DNA of 64,000 bases from NCBI GenBank assembly GCA_038061995.1, contig JBBTYA010000001.1, positions 10,441 through 74,440 of the forward strand. The letters run 5' to 3'. Made by a program: the position numbers and the translations under genes. The notes beneath the pieces are model-generated. The model did not search any database. It was not told the origin of the DNA and was given only the letters and a program-made list of their open reading frames with translations. Of the stretch, positions 14,746-45,635 are shown piece after piece (within the stretch, counting starts at the first letter, position 1; the number at the start of each line of letters is the position of its first letter). Source of the stretch: Patescibacteria group bacterium (GTDB lineage: Bacteria > Patescibacteriota > Minisyncoccia > 2-02-FULL-40-12 > GWA2-44-9).

Positions 14746-14949
14746 CTATGAGGCAGGTTGCGCCGCCGCGAATTCGGCGGCATGCGCCCACAGCACTCCG
14801 CAGAAGGGGCACGCGCGAGCGTCGCCCTGCAGGCAATTCTCGCACTTGCTCCCGCTACACCGCGAACAGGAATACAGAAGGACTCCATCTTCCCCGCAGT
14901 GTGTACAGTTGCCCGCGTGCGTATGGGCGACTACCTTCTCGCTGGCCAT
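14746..14949 (-). CDS. Small Cys-rich protein with four CxxC motifs (double zinc ribbon)
   Basis: The translation MASEKVVAHTHAGNCTHCGEDGVLLYSCSRCSGSKCENCLQGDARACPFCGVLWAHAAEFAAAQPAS carries CTHC, CSRC, CENC and CPFC. It has its own terminator. Confidence 0.4.
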   Translation of the reverse strand: MASEKVVAHTHAGNCTHCGEDGVLLYSCSRCSGSKCENCLQGDARACPFCGVLWAHAAEFAAAQPAS

Positions 14950-15002
14950 CAGATCACCTCCTCTTCATGTATCTCGATTGGCCCTATCACTATACCACAA
15001 AA

Positions 15003-15859: not shown

Positions 15860-17122
15860 CTATACTTCTACAGAACCTTTAATAATATTCTCCGTAAAGA
15901 GCTCATTCATTTTCTCGCGGCCGATATATTCACTAAAGAAACGGTTCCACAACGCCTCCTGATGATGATACGAATAGCGCATCATGCCTTTCACCACCGA
16001 AGACATCACTAAATCGATGAGGTTAAAACTTACAAACTTTTCATTCCCCGCAGAATCTTTAAAGAAATCCCCCACGGCATCGAGACCAGTCCAGTATCCG
16101 AGATCAAACGCTTCCTTTCCAAGCGCTCGCCCAACCTGGCCCAAGTCCTCACCTACTTTATACCAATGCTCTGCTTCTGGGTTAATGTGTGGTTCGCCCA
16201 AGCGCGGATCTGCTTCGGAATCTTTCGCGAGATACCGCTGGATGACACGCCACACCGCCTTTTTACCTTCGCTCGGCGCTGGGAGCGGCCCTTCAGACAC
16301 ATCACCGCGGAGCAGTGACTGTAGTTTTGTAACGAAATCAGCGTCTTTCATGTAGGTACGAAAACGCTCGGTGTAAAACGGCACTTCGTGCAGATAGTGC
16401 ATGAGAAGCGTAAACAAACGCAGTGTTTCACCCTGCGTATCAATCTTGAGCGGGATCACGAAAATCACGCCATACTCCTTTAAGTGGCTTACGTTGTGGT
16501 ACTTCTTCTCTAAAAATTTATCTGCGACGCCAAGCCATTTCGGGTCTAAGATTTTTACTTCAACTTCACGCTCTTCAAAATCTTCTGGTTTTAGCTCACT
16601 GTAGGCCAGGTCAAAAAACGCGTGCATCCAGCCGGTATCCTGCGTGAAGCGAAGTGCGCTCACCACAGACGCGAACCCCTCCTTTTCAACAAGAGTCGCA
16701 ATGTCACTATAGCCAAAGTGTTTGATAAGGTTCTCTGGCTTATATTTTTCCAACAGAGACACCACGCGCTCGCGCTTGATAAACATGCCGCGGGGCGGTG
16801 TGTACACCTTTAGTGCTACTTCACACAGCTTGCCACACACCAGAGACATCTCCGCAAGGTTTGGCTTGTCCAAAAGCTCGTAAAGCTGGGAATCAAGCTG
16901 AGCAAGACGCTTAATCAACGCTCCGTAGACCGTATCTGCCGCATCCGTGCGTGACAGGCCATGCTCTGCAAGAATGCGATCTACGAGTGTTTGGTTCTGT
17001 GAAAGGATCGCATCGATTGCGCCCGTCTTTCCTGTTGCCGCACTTAATTCCGCATCTGCTTTTTCGATAACCGCCGGTGTCGTGTGTAGCAAGCGTGCAA
17101 GTTGTGTGTGAGATTCTGCCAT
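15860..17122 (-). CDS. Hypothetical protein (~420 aa) with no recognised family
   Basis: Long ORF. The probable start is MAESHTQ at 17122, because the upstream 34 codons (MVSKSYVSGNSACG...) look non-coding. Confidence 0.45.
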   Translation of the reverse strand: MAESHTQLARLLHTTPAVIEKADAELSAATGKTGAIDAILSQNQTLVDRILAEHGLSRTDAADTVYGALIKRLAQLDSQLYELLDKPNLAEMSLVCGKLCEVALKVYTPPRGMFIKRERVVSLLEKYKPENLIKHFGYSDIATLVEKEGFASVVSALRFTQDTGWMHAFFDLAYSELKPEDFEEREVEVKILDPKWLGVADKFLEKKYHNVSHLKEYGVIFVIPLKIDTQGETLRLFTLLMHYLHEVPFYTERFRTYMKDADFVTKLQSLLRGDVSEGPLPAPSEGKKAVWRVIQRYLAKDSEADPRLGEPHINPEAEHWYKVGEDLGQVGRALGKEAFDLGYWTGLDAVGDFFKDSAGNEKFVSFNLIDLVMSSVVKGMMRYSYHHQEALWNRFFSEYIGREKMNELFTENIIKGSVEV

Positions 17123-17349
17123 ATGCCCATTCTCGCTGAAACAGCTTAAAGTACAAGGCCCGTGTGTGGGTATATCAAACAATCCACACGCACTATTGCC
17201 CGATACGTAAGACTTTGATACCACGCCTCCTTAAGTAGCGATGAAGCGCTCGGCACCGCTCGAATGCGTAGGCGGACCGAGTACGGCAGTCCCGCAGCAA
17301 AGGTCCTGCACGGTGAGAGATCACCTGTAGGGCACGGAGGAACACAGTT

Positions 17350-17433
17350 ATGTTCCGGCACGGCGAAGCGCGCGAGATGAAGTTCGAAGACGTGCGGCAC
17401 TTCGTGGACAAGGCGAAGGTCCAGAAGGGCTAG
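17350..17433 (+). CDS. Candidate small ORF of 27 aa with a strong Shine-Dalgarno sequence (GGAGGAA, 9 nt upstream), inside a GC-rich intergenic region
   Basis: Sequence cacGGAGGAAcacagttATG..., encoding MFRHGEAREMKFEDVRHFVDKAKVQKG. It is followed by a 10-bp perfect hairpin at 17452-17476 and a terminator at 17538-17566. Confidence 0.25.
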   Translation: MFRHGEAREMKFEDVRHFVDKAKVQKG

Positions 17434-17537
17434 CACCGCGGCTGAAGACGAAAAGATGTGGGGGCCACAAGCCCCCACATCCCCCTCCACTACCGTTCTT
17501 TACAGAATCACAGCGCGCCACACGGCGCACAACAAGG

Positions 17538-17566
17538 GGCCTCGCGGAAACGCTCGAGGCCTTTTT
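17538..17566 (+). terminator. Rho-independent terminator (+ strand)
   Basis: Stem ggcctcg cggaaacgct cgaggcc followed by ttttt. Confidence 0.4.
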
Positions 17567-17618
17567 CATACCTAAAACTGCCTATTTTCCTTGCTTTTTT
17601 CGGCTATATTCGTGGTTG

Positions 17619-17648
17619 TTGACATATATAGTGGAAATGTGATAGTAT
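17619..17648 (+). promoter_or_regulatory. Sigma70-like promoter (TTGACA, then 17-18 nt, then TAGTAT/ATAGTA)
   Basis: Sequence TTGACAtatatagtggaaatgtgaTAGTATatata. It lies upstream of a ~550-nt terminator-delimited unit. Confidence 0.4.
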
Positions 17649-17838
17649 ATATACAGTTCCGTAAAAACCAATAGCGCGGGCCGGGCCACATTGGCCGCCC
17701 GCACACAAGAAAAACCCGTTGCGCAAAATCGCCCCGCTCGGCCGACCCCCTCGATGGGCTCGCGCGCCGACAAGGCACACGCGCAGCATGTCCGCTTGTA
17801 AGAGCGCTGGAAACGCCTTACGAGCAAGGAGAAGCGCT

Positions 17839-17940
17839 ATGCACGCTCACTCCCCGCCCGTCGCGGGAACCCTGGAGAAGAAATTCAAGTTCGACTTCGA
17901 CAAGGGCCTGGCCGGCGACAACGGCACCCTCCTGAAGTAG
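17839..17940 (+). CDS. Candidate small ORF of 33 aa with a Shine-Dalgarno sequence (AGGAGA, 6 nt upstream), inside the promoter-to-terminator unit 17619-18212
   Basis: Sequence caAGGAGAagcgctATG..., encoding MHAHSPPVAGTLEKKFKFDFDKGLAGDNGTLLK. The track shows a longer 73-aa in-frame version starting at 17719. Confidence 0.3.
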   Translation: MHAHSPPVAGTLEKKFKFDFDKGLAGDNGTLLK

Positions 17941-18179
17941 GGCGTCGGCGCCTCCGCTCGTAACCCCCCACTCCGCCATCGTTCCACGACGGGACGAAAG
18001 AGAGATCGGGGGGAACCGGCAACCACAGTCGGCGTAGAGCGTTTCCGAAGGCATTTCTGAAGGTGCCCAAGGAGAAGCCTACGCAGAGAAAGGACTAAGA
18101 ACCGCCACCCACCGCAGCCCTGGCACGGCAGGCACCGCCCCCACACGGGGAGCGCGCCCAAGAGTGGGTTGACCAACAA

Positions 18180-18212
18180 GGGGCTCCGACACATCGGAGC
18201 CCCTCTTTTATT
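18180..18212 (+). terminator. Rho-independent terminator (+ strand)
   Basis: Stem ggggctccg acacat cggagcccc followed by tcttttatt. Confidence 0.45.
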
Positions 18213-18229
18213 ACTCCAAAACGCGGGAA

Positions 18230-18258
18230 TTGACAGTTGTTATAAAAGACAGTATACT
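18230..18258 (+). promoter_or_regulatory. Sigma70-like promoter (TTGACA, 17 nt, TATACT) heading a ~300-nt ORF-less unit that ends at the 18531-18573 terminator
   Basis: Sequence TTGACAgttgttataaaagacagTATACT. Confidence 0.4.
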
Positions 18259-18530
18259 CTTTTTAGCACTTTTCATCCGTCATCCCCATCGCCCCCCCAC
18301 GCAGGTTTCAGCAATCTTCGTGGGGCCAGCCCCTTTTGACTCCTAAAGGGCCGATTCGTGTGCATAGTCTTTCTCCAGGCAAAGGTGCACACGCCATGCA
18401 GCCGTCCGAAGGTCGGCAAAGAAGGAATCGAGAGAGCCCCCTCTCTTGAACGTCTCTGCATGGTCCCGCTGATGCGCAAAGCAAACGCATCAGACCTCCT
18501 TTCGCGGCGCTTGCCGCACGTCGCCGTTCG

Positions 18531-18573
18531 CCCCTCGTGTAATCCGGGATATCACGAGGGGCTTTTTCTTTTT
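18531..18573 (+). terminator. Rho-independent terminator (+ strand)
   Basis: Stem cccctcgtg ... cacgagggg followed by ctttttcttttt. Confidence 0.45.
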
Positions 18574-19555
18574 ATAAACTCGACACCTTCACGGGCACCA
18601 ATGGCCACGGACCCCAATTCCCTTTCGTGAGGATGCCTTTCTTTGCACCGAATTCAGTAACTACCGATGATGCATTTGCAGTGCCAAACTGAATCGCTTT
18701 TGCGATATCTCCAGAGCGCGCATATTCACATACAAACCCAGAGCTGAAGGCATCACCCGCCCCCGTGCGCTCCACTACCGGCGATGCGGGCACGCTCGCT
18801 GTATATACTTTTTTCCCATCAGAGACAGAAACGCCGTTCGGCCCTTTCGTGAGTACAAAAATACCGTCGATGAGGCGATCCATAGTTTCAAAAATGTCTT
18901 TCTCGTTTTGATATGGGATGCCCAAAAAATCAGCAGCTTCTTCTTGATTCATAATCACCACGGAAAAGTGTTTCAGCAGTGGCTTAAGCTTTTCTAAACC
19001 ATGCGCAAGCTCTTTTCCGCCCGGATTGATGGCGAGCTGGATCTTATTGTCACGCGCCCAGAGCGTCGTTGTTTCGAGAACTTCCCAGCTTCCGCCTAGA
19101 CTACTTACAAATGCCCACGTAGATTGAAGGCGGTCGTAGGGAATACCCACGGTTGTGAAGTGTTGCCCCTCACCCTTGTAGGAAAGAATGGTGCGCTCTC
19201 CGTCTTCGTTTACGAGCACCACAGAATAAGCGGTCATGCCATCGTCGTGAGTCAGCACATATTTCGGATCCACGCCTTCTTTGCGCAACACATCAAGAAT
19301 ATCTCGGCCGTTCGCATCATGCCCCACCACGCCAATAAACGCCGTGTTCAAACCTTGACGCGCAAACGTAACTGCCGTGTTCGTTCCCCCACCACCAGAA
19401 GCGAGAACGATCTCGGGTACTTCAATTTTTGAGCCAAGACCAAATGCAAGCCCCCGCTTTTCGGGAAATGCGTCGTTCTGTATTATGAGCGGCGAACGAA
19501 GCTTTAGAAAAGTATCTTGTGTTGCGGATCCAAATACAATGATGTCGTACTGCAT
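18572..19555 (-). CDS. PfkB-family carbohydrate kinase (ribokinase-like)
   Basis: GAGDAF motif near the C-terminus and the ribokinase-like fold signature (DIIVFGSATQD..., GGGGTNTAVTFARQG). Confidence 0.8.
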   Translation of the reverse strand: MQYDIIVFGSATQDTFLKLRSPLIIQNDAFPEKRGLAFGLGSKIEVPEIVLASGGGGTNTAVTFARQGLNTAFIGVVGHDANGRDILDVLRKEGVDPKYVLTHDDGMTAYSVVLVNEDGERTILSYKGEGQHFTTVGIPYDRLQSTWAFVSSLGGSWEVLETTTLWARDNKIQLAINPGGKELAHGLEKLKPLLKHFSVVIMNQEEAADFLGIPYQNEKDIFETMDRLIDGIFVLTKGPNGVSVSDGKKVYTASVPASPVVERTGAGDAFSSGFVCEYARSGDIAKAIQFGTANASSVVTEFGAKKGILTKGNWGPWPLVPVKVSSL

Positions 19556-20599: not shown

Positions 20600-21523
20600 T
20601 TATGATTGCCGATTGAGATACTGAACCGCAGTAAGCGCTGCGATGCACCCCTGTCCAGCCGCAATGACAATCTGGTTAAACGGCACATTCGTCACGTCAC
20701 CTGCCGCAAAAAGACCAGAAACGTTTGTAGCACAATGCGCATCAACAACAATCTGCCCGATAGCATCCTTTTCTACTTCAGAAGGAACAACTGAAGAATT
20801 CGGGATGTTGCCAATGTGCACAAAGACTCCTTCTACGTCGAGTACGTGCTCCACGCCTTCCGCATCTTTATATGCGAGGTGCTTTACAAATTGGTCTCCC
20901 TCAATACGTGTGGTGAGCGCATTATACAGTATGGTTACGTTCTGCTTCTTTTGCAGGTTCTCAATGAGCATCTGATCCCCCTTAAAAGCGGTGTTCTTAT
21001 TGATAACGTACACATGCGATGCAATATCAGCGAGCATGAGGGCAGATTCAAGCGCGGAGTTCCCTCCACCAACAGTTGCGGTGATTTTGCCACTAAAAAT
21101 GGGGCCATCACACGTGGTGCAATAGCTTACTCCCTTATTACGAAATTCCTTTTCTCCGGGCACTCCCAGCTCGCGAGGATGGACGCCCGTAGCTACAATC
21201 ACCGCGCGAGATTGGAAAGAAAGCGCCTCGTCGCCTCGCTTGGCGCTTACGGTAAAAATACCATCGGTGCCCTTTACAATACTTTCAACCAGTACACCGT
21301 CTTCTGTAGGAGCCTTATAGAAATCAAGGTGATCCTTAAATTGCTTGGCGAGCGCAAAGCCATCGGTTTGTTGCACGCCGGGCCAGTTACCGACCTCGCC
21401 GGATGTTGCCACCTCGCCGCCAAATTCCTTTGCCACCACTACAAAGTTTAAACCGCGACGAGCCGCATAAATACCCGCAGTAATAGCCGCCGCCGAACCG
21501 CCAATAATCGTTAAATCTCGCAT
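20600..21523 (-). CDS. trxB: Thioredoxin-disulfide reductase
   Basis: FAD and NAD(P) Rossmann motifs (IIGGSAAAITAGIYAARRG, GGGNSALE), the redox motif CTTCDGP, and FAAGDV. Confidence 0.85.
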   Translation of the reverse strand: MRDLTIIGGSAAAITAGIYAARRGLNFVVVAKEFGGEVATSGEVGNWPGVQQTDGFALAKQFKDHLDFYKAPTEDGVLVESIVKGTDGIFTVSAKRGDEALSFQSRAVIVATGVHPRELGVPGEKEFRNKGVSYCTTCDGPIFSGKITATVGGGNSALESALMLADIASHVYVINKNTAFKGDQMLIENLQKKQNVTILYNALTTRIEGDQFVKHLAYKDAEGVEHVLDVEGVFVHIGNIPNSSVVPSEVEKDAIGQIVVDAHCATNVSGLFAAGDVTNVPFNQIVIAAGQGCIAALTAVQYLNRQS

Positions 21524-21559: not shown

Positions 21560-21696
21560 AAGAATACGAGATGTTGTTCTGGAGAGCCTCTCGGAGCCCG
21601 AACCGCTCGGACGAGCGAAGCTCGGGTGAGGGCGAGAGGGAGTGCTCTTGCTCGCAGGAAGCAAGAGACACGTGCTCGGAAGAACAATGTCTCGTA
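21560..21696 (+). repeat. Structured repeat family, copy B. It has 21-22-bp inverted arms (aagaatacgagatgttgttct / agaacaatgtctcgtattctt) plus a U-run, and sits in the 5' leader of the glutaredoxin gene.
   Basis: Core gagcctctcggagcccgaaccgctcgg...gggtgagggcgagagggag...gctcttgc tcgcaggaa gcaagagac. Confidence 0.55.
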
Positions 21697-21741
21697 TTCT
21701 TTTTTGTTGTCGCTGGCCCAGTTGTGCTATACTCGTTACCT

Positions 21742-21975
21742 ATGCCAAAGATCACTATTTATTCAACCCCCTGGTGTGGCTACTGCAAGCAAGCAAAAGA
21801 GTATTTCCAAACAAAAGGATGGGAGTTTACTGAAAAAGACGTGCAGGCAGACACTGTCGCTCGCGAAGAGATGATCAACAAAACCGGCCAACTTGGCGTT
21901 CCGGTCATTGATGTCAATGGAAAGATAATCATCGGCTTTGATCGCCCGAAAATCGATCAATACGCCGCATCGTAA
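21742..21975 (+). CDS. Glutaredoxin-like protein (NrdH/Grx family, CGYC active site)
   Basis: The translation MPKITIYSTPWCGYCKQAKEYFQTKGWEFTEKDV...GVPVIDVNGKIIIGF. The start was placed at the internal ATG. Confidence 0.75.
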   Translation: MPKITIYSTPWCGYCKQAKEYFQTKGWEFTEKDVQADTVAREEMINKTGQLGVPVIDVNGKIIIGFDRPKIDQYAAS

Positions 21976-42349: not shown

Positions 42350-42602
42350 AATAAAAAATGAACGCCCCCACGATCTCTCGTGGGGGCTGGGGTTGTTCTC
42401 GGCTACCGCGCTAGCGGTAGCCGGCGGGCAACCCCTTCTCGGGGCTCCAGGCACCCAGCTTCTCGCTGGGCCGGAGCCAGGGGGCCGCGGGGGCCGCCTG
42501 GTGCGTGCCCCGCGTGATGCACGCGGGGGTACGGCGCGTCGGCTTGTGAACCATAGTTCACCTCCTGTCTTTAATTATAGCACGTAATAGTATAAAAGTC
42601 AA
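42350..42602 (-). promoter_or_regulatory. Compact expression unit. It consists of a canonical promoter (TTGACT, 17 nt, TATAAT), a perfect Shine-Dalgarno sequence (AGGAGGTGA), a 47-codon GC-rich ORF (42411-42554) made of consecutive perfect hairpins, and a rho-independent terminator. It lies 35-60 nt upstream of the TPR membrane gene. It is either a candidate structured leader/ncRNA or a small protein gene.
   Basis: The -35 is at 42597-42602 and the -10 at 42574-42579. ATG is at 42554 and the stop TAG at 42411. The peptide is MVHKPTRRTPACITRGTHQAAPAAPWLRPSEKLGAWSPEKGLPAGYR. The RNA folds into 9-10-bp perfect stems (cccccgcgtg/cacgcgggg, cggctaccgc/gcggtagccg). The terminator is cccccacga...tcgtggggg plus TTTTTT. 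Confidence 0.4.
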
Positions 42603-45449: not shown

Positions 45450-45635
45450 ATGAAAAGTGAGGGATGAGGCCGTATAAACGACCCCACCCCTCGTGTTAGG
45501 GAGCAGCTCGAACGAGAGCTACTCCCTGGTACCGCAGCCCTCTTCGCAGTGGGCCACGGCCCGAAGGAACCACTTGCAGCGCATGGTGCACCTCCTTTCA
45601 CATTCCAGTATACCCCCCTGGGGTATCTATGTCAA
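45450..45635 (-). promoter_or_regulatory. Leader unit upstream of csoR. It consists of a canonical promoter (TTGACA, 17 nt, TATACT), a Shine-Dalgarno sequence (AAGGAGGTG), a 21-codon Cys-containing ORF (45519-45584) and a terminator-like hairpin ~10 nt before the csoR start.
   Basis: The -35 is at 45630-45635 and the -10 at 45607-45612. The peptide is MRCKWFLRAVAHCEEGCGTRE. A hairpin gggagtagctc/gagctgctccc is followed by gaggg...ccctc and TTTTCAT. Confidence 0.35.

What the first reader, a model, noticed from the sequence alone, without database searches (positions are those of the whole stretch)
17225..18571. A 1.35-kb GC-rich gene-free region organised as three promoter-to-terminator mini-units with strong-SD micro-ORFs
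No ORF of 60 aa or more is credible in this region, yet it shows clear transcription signals. Unit 1 has an SD (GGAGGAA) plus a 27-aa ORF at 17350-17433, a 10-bp perfect hairpin at 17452-17476 and a terminator at 17538-17566. Unit 2 has a TTGACA, 17-18 nt, TAGTAT promoter at 17619, a ~190-nt GC-rich leader, an SD (AGGAGA) plus a 33-aa ORF at 17839-17940, a ~240-nt GC-rich tail and a strong terminator at 18180-18212. Unit 3 has a TTGACA, 17 nt, TATACT promoter at 18230 and a ~300-nt ORF-less transcript ending at the terminator 18531-18573. The two peptides share a K-F-x-(F/E)-D...DK motif, and the second ends in KGLAGDNG. That ending resembles KGLPAGY, the end of the small ORF at 42411-42554. 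These units could be sRNA genes, dual-function RNAs or a family of secreted or regulatory micropeptides. I could not match the region to RNase P, tmRNA, SRP or 6S RNA by motif.
Basis: seen in the sequence. Interest (0 to 1): 0.6.

Follow-up and report, generated by a model that had tools for sequence, protein, structure and literature searches.

The report
Lineage-specific small RNA genes, not micropeptides
A 1.45-kb gap inside a sugar-metabolism operon of an uncultivated groundwater bacterium (Patescibacteria) holds two, possibly three, small structured RNA genes of unknown function that match no catalogued RNA family, and their tiny reading frames do not evolve like protein-coding sequence.

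Summary
Most of the sequence features are real. Two near-consensus sigma-70 promoters (17619, 18230), three hairpin-plus-T-run terminators and the two SD-led micro-ORFs are there. "Unit 1" has no promoter.

The region is the gap between pfkB and a conserved 420-aa unknown gene ("P420") in a Paceibacteria-type genome. Both genes lie on the opposite strand.

**Unit 3 (about 18265-18573)** is a conserved, structured, strand-specific RNA. It differs by 14% from the sister species, against 54% at neutral 4-fold sites. Almost all stem substitutions keep pairing. The MFE z-score is -5.3 on + and -1.9 on -.

**Unit 2 (about 17655-18212)** has a conserved promoter and a structured leader. One 11-bp helix carries 6 compensatory pairs.

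**The unit 2 ORF** is 37% aa-identical to its counterpart. None of its 12 conserved codons shows a synonymous change (46% in neighbouring genes, P about 0.001).

**The peptides** resemble neither each other nor anything among 5.8 billion proteins.

**Unit 1** is a strain-variable insertion, absent from the sister species.

Rfam, Pfam and pseudogene tests are all negative.

In about a quarter of related genomes the same junction carries other unknown GC-rich RNA genes, always transcribed against the operon.

Verdict: new, narrowly distributed sRNA genes. The micropeptide reading is not supported.

The parts
17125..18571 (.). Whole gap between P420 (15860-17122, minus strand) and pfkB (18572-19555, minus strand). 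It is an insert in an otherwise compact rpe-pfkB-P420-fba operon.
   Evidence: In 64 of 101 related loci that carry both genes, pfkB and P420 are less than 200 nt apart.
17174..17608 (+). 'Unit 1', a 435-nt indel absent from the sister species. It holds a 27-aa micro-ORF (17350-17433), an 11-bp hairpin (17455-17481) and a terminator-like hairpin plus T-run (17536-17566). No promoter was found. Which strand is used is uncertain.
17280..17458 (.). Hypervariable core of unit 1. A strain of about 97% overall identity has unalignable sequence here, while both flanks are about 100% identical.
17619..17648 (+). Unit 2 promoter (TTGACA, TG-extended -10). The hexamers are conserved in the sister species.
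17655..17825 (+). Unit 2 structured leader. It includes the hairpin at 17674-17700 and the helix at 17794-17825 that ends 1 nt before the SD. The segment 17631-17825 is cleanly deleted in strain L003.
   Evidence: Helix 7 has 11 pairs, 6 of them changed on both sides.
17826..17940 (+). SD (AAGGAG, 17826-17831) and 33-aa ORF (17839-17940). Two blocks are conserved at nucleotide level (CACTCCCCGCCC and GCCGGCGACAA.GGC). There is no peptide-level conservation.
17941..18212 (+). Unit 2 GC-rich 3' part and intrinsic terminator (18179-18204 plus T-run). The part before the terminator is close to neutral divergence.
18230..18258 (+). Unit 3 promoter, TTGACA-17-TATACT (11/12). The hexamers are invariant and the spacer has diverged in the sister species.
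18265..18573 (+). Unit 3, an sRNA of about 309 nt. It has six helical elements, including a three-way central domain (18393-18464), and a terminator hairpin at 18530-18562.
18495..18503 (+). CCUCCUUUC motif. It is unpaired in the consensus structure, invariant in all three sequences, and identical to the anti-SD core of the 16S rRNA 3' tail. It is the candidate seed.
   Evidence: The comparison with 16S rests on my own knowledge.

Best explanation
The gap holds independently transcribed non-coding RNA genes on the strand opposite the surrounding sugar-phosphate operon.

**Unit 3** is an RNA of about 309 nt. It runs from a near-perfect sigma-70 promoter to an intrinsic terminator that abuts the pfkB stop codon. 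It is a conserved, highly structured small RNA.

**Unit 2** is an RNA of about 560 nt with its own promoter and terminator. Its 5' 180 nt fold into conserved helices. Its micro-ORF region is constrained as RNA sequence, not as peptide.

**Unit 1** is a strain-variable accessory insertion whose function, if any, is doubtful.

Shown here: the signals, the constraint, the structure, the strand, and the absence of coding-type evolution.

Inferred: the RNAs act as regulators. My preferred mechanism for unit 3 is trans-acting base pairing. It would use its invariant, unpaired CCUCCUUUC (anti-Shine-Dalgarno-like) stretch to reach ribosome-binding sites of target mRNAs, as C-rich-seed sRNAs of Gram-positive bacteria do. 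I put that mechanism at about 0.3.

The position may also matter. The RNAs are always convergent with pfkB and divergent from P420, at a junction that in relatives carries other unrelated RNA genes. This suggests a possible link to the control or insulation of this operon.
For: **Signals.** Both promoters and all terminators are present. Their hexamers and the terminator hairpins are conserved in the sister species (L041-L044, P420 93% aa identity) while the spacers diverge.

**Constraint.** Differences between the window and L041:

| Region | Differences |
|---|---|
| Unit 3 | 14% |
| Unit 2 leader | 32% |
| Flanking CDS | 18-24% |
| 4-fold degenerate sites | 54% |

**Structure of unit 3.**
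- RNAalifold predicts 82 pairs. Two show double compensatory changes, 6 show one-sided changes that keep pairing, and 2 are broken at helix ends.
- Nine pairs contain G-U in at least one sequence.
- The MFE z-score is -5.29 on the + strand and -1.94 on the - strand.

**Structure of unit 2.** Ten of 62 pairs are changed on both sides. Six of these lie in the single 11-bp helix at 17794-17825. Slid-partner controls give 0-1.

**Not coding.**
- 0 of 12 conserved codons in the unit 2 ORF differ synonymously, against 46% in the flanking genes (P = 6e-4).
- The peptide has no homologue.
- The minus-strand 60-aa ORF in unit 3 is frameshifted in L041.
- No stop-free segment has a Pfam hit.

**Context.** Inserts at this junction in about 27 distinct loci carry 26 strong promoters on the anti-operon strand and none on the operon strand.
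Against: - Homologues of units 2 and 3 were found in only two species, the window species (three assemblies) and L041-44. The covariation evidence therefore rests on essentially one pairwise comparison.
- There are no expression data.
- No target can be singled out. Duplex predictions with the seed simply pick out strong SD sequences.
- Unit 2's tail is near neutral, so much of that transcript may be unconstrained.
- Unit 2's SD and ATG, and the in-frame indels of its ORF, leave room for translation.
- Strain L003 lacks unit 2's -10 box and leader, so unit 2 is dispensable in at least one strain.
Confidence: 0.62

Rival explanations
1. Units 1 and 2 are small-protein (micropeptide) genes or dual-function RNAs. 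The SD-led 27- and 33-aa ORFs are translated and the peptides are the functional products.
For: - Each ORF has a strong SD at good spacing from an ATG.
- The unit 2 ORF stays open in L041, with an aligned ATG and in-frame 3-nt indels.
- The unit 1 ORF in L003 keeps its start, EMKF and the ...QKG stop after an apparent 27-nt in-frame deletion.
- Two more SD-plus-micro-ORF units exist in the window, at 42353-42602 and 45453-45635.
Against: - aa identity is 37%, against 75-96% for the neighbouring proteins.
- 0 of 12 conserved codons carry synonymous changes (P about 0.001).
- The SD is degenerate in L041.
- There is no relative among 5.8 billion proteins.
- The peptides show no similarity to each other.
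- At 63% GC a 30-codon open frame is expected by chance about 40% of the time (my own calculation).
Confidence: 0.15
2. The units work in cis, as antisense or convergent transcription modules. Strong transcription against the operon, ending at a hairpin shared with the pfkB 3' end, would insulate or tune read-through from pfkB into P420-fba. The RNA sequence itself would be secondary.
For: - The operon is contiguous in most relatives.
- Every insert carries its strong promoter on the anti-operon strand, 26 against 0.
- The unit 3 terminator overlaps the pfkB stop codon and has no U-tract for the minus strand.
- Unrelated sequences occupy the same place in different lineages.
Against: - Unit 3 is constrained along its whole length and in its stems. 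Pure transcriptional interference would not require that.
- Helix 17794-17825 shows compensatory evolution.
- This reading is compatible with the best explanation and does not exclude it.
Confidence: 0.2
3. The region is decaying or neutral DNA, either a pseudogene remnant or a foreign insert, and the signals are fortuitous.
For: - Unit 1 is absent from the sister species, hypervariable between strains, and lacks a promoter.
- Unit 2's tail diverges at a near-neutral rate.
- Strain L003 carries a 195-nt deletion.
- Other relatives have protein genes at this site (L021, L128).
Against: - No Pfam hit for any stop-free segment.
- No similarity to the genes inserted at this site in L021 or L128.
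- Unit 3 evolves about 4 times slower than 4-fold sites.
- The promoter hexamers are conserved while the spacers diverge.

This reading is plausible only for unit 1 and for the tail of unit 2.
Confidence: 0.07
4. One of the units is a strongly diverged housekeeping RNA (6S, RNase P, SRP or tmRNA) or a known ribozyme or riboswitch that Rfam models miss.
For: - There is a weak twister-P3 match at 18394-18463 (21.9 bits, E = 0.18 for a 1.6-kb search).
- CPR RNAs are often atypical (my own knowledge).
Against: - No Rfam family reaches its gathering score in the window or in 20 related loci.
- The twister score is far below the 39.9-bit cut-off.
- ARAGORN finds no tmRNA.
- Unit 3's fold is not a 6S-type long hairpin with a central bubble.
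- Models R1 and R2 found no homologues in about 1 Mb of related loci. These loci cover only the syntenic region, however.
Confidence: 0.04

Closest known systems
Trans-encoded base-pairing sRNAs with C-rich, anti-SD-like seeds (for example RsaE/RoxS and the 3' domain of RNAIII in Firmicutes)
   Same: Stand-alone gene with its own sigma-70 promoter and intrinsic terminator, several hairpins, and an invariant unpaired C/U-rich stretch (CCUCCUUUC) able to pair with Shine-Dalgarno sequences.
   Different: No sequence or Rfam relationship. About 309 nt, longer than most such sRNAs. No target, chaperone or expression data. Known only in two Patescibacteria species.
Dual-function sRNAs (SgrS/SgrT, RNAIII/delta-haemolysin, SR1/SR1P)
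   Same: A structured regulatory RNA carrying a short SD-led ORF. Like SgrS, it sits next to sugar-phosphate metabolism genes.
   Different: The ORF shows no amino-acid-level conservation and no synonymous substitutions, whereas SgrT, Hld and SR1P are conserved as peptides (my own knowledge). There is no homology.
Orphan structured ncRNAs found as GC-rich intergenic regions (Breaker/Weinberg-type candidates such as raiA, ROOL, GOLLD and OLE)
   Same: A GC-enriched, ORF-poor intergenic region in a lower-GC genome, with compensatory substitutions, its own promoter and terminator, and unknown function.
   Different: None of these families matches. The distribution is much narrower. Covariation support comes from only two species.
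Antisense or 'excludon'-type convergent transcription units
   Same: Strong promoters directed against an operon at a gene junction, and a terminator shared with the 3' end of the convergent gene.
   Different: The transcripts do not overlap either coding sequence, and the RNA bodies are themselves under selection.
Type-P3 twister ribozyme (RF03154)
   Same: The 18394-18463 domain has an outer 8-bp stem enclosing two hairpins, and it shares some consensus nucleotides.
   Different: It scores 21.9 bits against a 39.9-bit gathering score. Several conserved core nucleotides differ. The domain is embedded in a larger conserved RNA.

Membership tests
Any Rfam 15 family (including RNase P, tmRNA, SRP, 6S, riboswitches, raiA, ROOL, GOLLD, OLE, HEARO) | Covariance-model score at or above the family's gathering threshold | tested here: not met
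   Only 5 tRNAs are found in the window. The best hits in 17100-18700 are 12-23 bits, all far below their thresholds. There are no matches at gathering score in 20 related loci either.
tmRNA | tRNA-like domain plus a tag reading frame | tested here: not met
   ARAGORN finds no tmRNA in the window.
Twister-P3 ribozyme | Score of at least 39.9 bits with a conserved catalytic core | tested here: not met
   21.9 bits, E = 0.18 for a 1.6-kb search. Self-cleavage cannot be tested here.
Stand-alone bacterial sRNA gene | Own promoter and intrinsic terminator, conserved in relatives | tested here: met
   Met for units 2 and 3. Not met for unit 1, which has no promoter.
Stand-alone bacterial sRNA gene | Sequence and structure under purifying selection, with compensatory changes | tested here: met
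   Unit 3 differs by 14%, against 54% at 4-fold sites. In the unit 3 consensus 80 of 82 pairs are kept. In unit 2, 10 pairs are changed on both sides. Only two species are available.
Stand-alone bacterial sRNA gene | A discrete transcript is detected | not testable with these tools
   No transcriptome data are available.
Base-pairing sRNA with an anti-SD seed | A conserved unpaired seed and a conserved complementary target | tested here: inconclusive
   The seed CCUCCUUUC is invariant and unpaired. The best predicted partners are simply strong SD sequences, and no specific target emerges.
Small-protein gene or dual-function sRNA | Amino-acid-level conservation, with an excess of synonymous over non-synonymous change | tested here: not met
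   11-12 of 30 aa are identical. 0 of 12 conserved codons differ synonymously, against a 46% baseline (P about 0.001).
Small-protein gene or dual-function sRNA | Homologous peptides in other genomes, or paralogy among the units | tested here: not met
   The search finds only the peptide itself among 5.8e9 proteins. BLASTP finds no alignment between the peptides. The units show no nucleotide similarity.
Pseudogene of a protein-coding gene | Residual similarity to a protein family, or to the genes at this site in relatives | tested here: not met
   Pfam finds nothing relevant at E <= 1. tblastn with the genes inserted at this site in L128 and L021 gives only noise.
Mobile element (MITE or IS fragment) | Terminal inverted repeats, a target-site duplication, and multiple copies | tested here: not met
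   No second copy in the 64-kb window or in 1 Mb of loci. No terminal inverted repeats at the unit 1 boundaries, only a 3-4-nt microhomology.

The most novel reading that the evidence does not exclude
The pfkB-P420 junction of Paceibacteria would be a conserved landing site for RNA genes. Different lineages have installed unrelated, selectively maintained structured RNAs there. Examples are units 2 and 3 here, a junction motif of about 115 nt ('B-core'), and a 330-520-nt RNA ('family C'). All are transcribed against the central sugar-phosphate operon. Together they would form an RNA-based regulatory layer for carbon metabolism in bacteria that have very few protein regulators. All of these RNA families are uncatalogued.
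Probability: 0.22. Interest if true: 0.7.

Novelty: new member of a known kind. Interest (0 to 1): 0.45.

Why it matters
To my knowledge almost nothing is known about regulatory RNAs in the Candidate Phyla Radiation. These bacteria are uncultivated, have tiny genomes and carry few transcription factors.

This locus gives concrete sRNA candidates with conserved promoters, terminators and stems. They can be looked for directly in existing groundwater metatranscriptomes.

The locus also shows that SD-led micro-ORFs in GC-rich intergenic regions of these genomes should not be annotated as small proteins without substitution-pattern evidence.

The recurring use of one operon junction by unrelated RNA genes, including two well-supported uncatalogued structured RNAs in relatives, is a lead for RNA-family discovery.

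Tried and rejected
1. **Known RNA family.** Rfam was run at gathering score on the window and 20 loci, and at E <= 10 on the region. Nothing was found. ARAGORN found no tmRNA.
2. **Twister ribozyme.** The match is below threshold.
3. **Wider homologues of units 1-3.**
   - blastn, nhmmer and covariance model R1 were run over 128 related loci (about 1 Mb). They find only the window species and L041-44.
   - Two viral-contig pattern scans were empty.
   - Short similarities to L046, L069, L036 and L089 are not significant.
4. **Peptide family.** The protein-database search finds only the peptide itself, and the peptides do not align. A recurring GUAACC near the stop does not define a common alternative frame.
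5. **Paralogy of the three units.** Rejected, z <= 0.5.
6. **Pseudogene.** Rejected.
7. **Minus-strand ORFs.**
   - The 60-aa ORF inside unit 3 is frameshifted in L041, and its substitutions are all non-synonymous.
   - The 114-aa ORF under unit 1 is truncated to 82 aa in L003 and absent in L041.
   - The GTG-extended P420 start at 17224 is interrupted by a stop in L003.
8. **Unit 3 loop pairing with the unit 2 start region.** The 17-nt complementarity is specific to the window strain, and other segments of the region pair equally well.
9. **Relation of the window units to the B-core and family C RNAs of relatives.** No match was found.
10. **Closest P420 relatives (64% identity).** Four of these loci were fetched, but pfkB and P420 are adjacent in three of them and no locus has an RNA insert.
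Full report
**Where the region lies**

The window comes from an uncultivated Patescibacteria (Paceibacteria/Yanofskybacteria-like) genome from Hainich groundwater. The same locus is found in MAG JBBTTB01 (H41-bin004_1) and in Hainich H41/H51 assemblies.

The flagged stretch is the gap between two minus-strand genes. One is a 420-aa conserved protein of unknown function, called P420 here (15860-17122). Its true start is the ATG at 17122, as in its more than 2000 homologues. The other is a PfkB-family sugar kinase (18572-19555). Both belong to a conserved rpiB-rpe-pfkB-P420-fba cluster.

**Check of the observation**

- Promoter-like sites of 10/12 (with TG) at 17619 and 11/12 at 18230, and the terminator at 18179-18204, are found by the scan.
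- The other two terminators are visible in the sequence, the folds and the inverted-repeat list.
- The two SD-led ORFs are at the stated coordinates.
- The gap has 57% GC against 52% for the window, and locally 62-64%.

Several corrections are needed.
- Unit 1 has no sigma-70-like promoter.
- Its perfect hairpin is at 17456-17480.
- Mechanical ORFs of 60 aa or more exist, but none is credible.

**Comparative material**

Two scans with P420 as anchor, plus look-ups of encoding contigs, gave 128 loci. Three kinds are informative.
- L003/L045 is a strain about 97% identical overall.
- L041-L044 is a sister species. Its P420 is 93% and its PfkB 96% aa-identical. Flanking genes are 76-82% nt-identical. 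54% of 4-fold degenerate sites differ.
- About 100 more distant Paceibacteria have P420 at 41-64% identity.

**Unit 3 (about 18265-18573, + strand)**

Unit 3 differs from the sister species at 14% of aligned positions. This is less than the neighbouring coding sequences and a quarter of the neutral rate. The -35 and -10 hexamers are identical while the 17-nt spacer has diverged. The terminator hairpin is identical.

RNAalifold predicts 82 pairs on the three sequences.
- Two pairs changed on both sides (U-A to C-G, G-C to A-U).
- Six changed on one side while staying paired.
- Only two, at helix ends, are broken.
- Nine pairs contain G-U, which would be C-A on the other strand.

The MFE z-score is -5.29 on the + strand and -1.94 on the - strand.

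The 60-aa minus-strand ORF that starts from the complement of CCUCCUUUC...CAU is frameshifted by a 2-nt indel in the sister species. It shows only non-synonymous changes before that point.

The stretch CCUCCUUUC (18495-18503) is invariant and unpaired in the consensus. It is identical to the anti-Shine-Dalgarno core of 16S rRNA (my own knowledge).

A covariance model of the core finds no further homologue in about 1 Mb of related loci.

**Unit 2 (about 17655-18212, + strand)**

The promoter, the first 10 nt of the transcript and the terminator position are conserved. The leader differs at 32% of positions, the ORF at 33%, and the tail at about 40% with many indels, which is close to neutral.

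On the two-species alignment, 10 of 62 predicted pairs changed on both sides. Six of those lie in one 11-bp helix (17794-17825) that ends one base before the SD. Sliding the 3' partners by 1-3 columns gives 0-1. The structure was derived from these same two sequences, so the whole-structure figures are optimistic. Six double changes in one helix are still hard to attribute to chance.

Strain L003 has a clean 195-nt deletion (17631-17825). It removes the -10 box and the whole leader.

**Are the micro-ORFs coding?**

The 33-aa ORF is retained in the sister species as a 30-aa ORF with in-frame indels. However, only 11-12 of 30 residues are identical, and the SD is degraded.

All conserved residues sit in two blocks that are identical at every codon position. 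None of the 12 conserved codons differs synonymously. In the four flanking genes 46% of conserved codons do, so P = 6e-4. This is the signature of nucleotide-level (RNA) constraint, not peptide constraint.

Further points against a peptide family:
- A search of 5.8 billion proteins returns only the peptide itself.
- The 27-aa, 33-aa and 47-aa (42411-42554) peptides give no BLASTP alignment even at E <= 100.
- The three units share no nucleotide similarity.

Translation is not excluded, but a micropeptide family is not supported.

**Unit 1**

A 435-nt segment (17174-17608) is absent from the sister species. Within it, 17280-17458 is replaced by unalignable sequence in the 97%-identical strain, while both flanks are virtually identical.

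It has a + strand terminator-like hairpin with a T-run but no + strand promoter. A weak minus-strand promoter at 17671 could make its complement part of a long P420 leader. The folding z-scores do not discriminate between strands (-2.9 and -2.3).

I regard it as an accessory insertion of uncertain strand and function.

**Exclusions**

- No Rfam family reaches threshold in the window or in 20 related loci.
- The twister-P3 match scores 21.9 bits against a 39.9-bit cut-off.
- There is no tmRNA.
- No Pfam hit for any stop-free segment, and no similarity to the genes that occupy this site in L021 or L128.
- No repeats or extra copies suggest a mobile element.

**The wider pattern**

In 64 of 101 loci with both genes, pfkB and P420 are less than 200 nt apart. 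In 37 loci (about 27 distinct sequences) the junction holds a 200-1450-nt insert, GC-enriched in most of them.

These inserts carry 26 strong sigma-70-like promoters on the strand opposite the operon and none on the operon strand. Terminators number 25 against 11.

The inserts are not one family. At least two other well-supported RNAs occur there.
- 'B-core' is a multi-stem motif of about 115 nt found in seven loci. It has 22 pairs, 6 of them compensatory, and model hits down to E = 4.5e-7.
- 'Family C' is a 330-520-nt RNA found in four loci. It has 78 pairs, 19 of them compensatory.

None of these loci gives an Rfam match. Neither RNA is related to the window's units.

**How it most likely works**

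Shown: units 2 and 3 are independent, + strand, selectively maintained structured RNA genes.

Inferred: they are regulatory. For unit 3 I favour trans-acting pairing through the exposed anti-SD-like motif (about 0.3). The best predicted partners in the window are merely strong ribosome-binding sites, so no specific target emerges.

A cis role remains a live and compatible alternative (about 0.2). In it, convergent transcription would insulate the two halves of the operon.

**Verdict**

The finding is real and partly correctly interpreted. It adds new, narrowly distributed members to the known class of bacterial sRNA genes, and it points to an RNA-gene hot spot in Paceibacteria. The micropeptide idea should be dropped unless proteomic evidence appears.

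Noticed in passing
[not shown]
   Followed up: partly
L028:5419-5528, L013:5414-5529, L012:5718-5829, L068:1558-1672, L009:592-705, L010:369-481 (all minus strand of the locus): 'B-core' is an RNA motif of about 115 nt (CGAACC ... ACUCAAGUAAGU ... AAAAAGGUUCG) just upstream of P420 and antisense to it, behind a conserved promoter. It has 22 predicted pairs, 6 of them compensatory. These loci gave no Rfam match.
   Followed up: partly
L026:5397-5734, L086:3357-3769, L092:3349-3691, L110:3313-3638 (minus strand of the locus): 'Family C' is a 330-520-nt GC-rich RNA with variable inserted domains, behind the promoter TTGACAATGCCTAG..TTTGCTATACT. It has 78 predicted pairs, 19 of them compensatory. 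These loci gave no Rfam match.
   Followed up: partly
window 42353-42602 (minus strand) and 45453-45635 (minus strand): Two more short GC-rich units. Each has a near-consensus promoter (11/12), a strong SD, a micro-ORF (47 aa and 21 aa), hairpins and a terminator. They resemble units 1 and 2 in layout but not in sequence.
   Followed up: partly
window 14750-14968 (minus strand): An SD-led ORF of about 72 aa, rich in cysteine and containing several CxxC pairs, lies just downstream of fba. It looks like an unannotated zinc-ribbon small protein.
   Followed up: no
window 21560-21680: A segment of about 124 nt between the divergent genes at 20600-21523 (minus strand) and 21571-21975 (plus strand) is inverted in strain L003 relative to the window, at 90% identity. 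It could be an invertible promoter region or an assembly difference.
   Followed up: no
L028:5880-5960 (minus strand of the locus): A tRNA-like sequence (GCGGUGGGAGUGGCUCAG ... CCACCGCC) lies next to P420. A nearby segment is complementary to its anticodon-arm region. Rfam does not call it at gathering score.
   Followed up: no
window 17826-17841 and 18070-18087: The 11-nt string CAAGGAGAAGC occurs twice in unit 2, at the SD of the ORF and again in the 3' part. The second copy resembles AGGTGCCCAGGGGGAAGCGTACGC in L046, a locus with 63% P420 identity.
   Followed up: no
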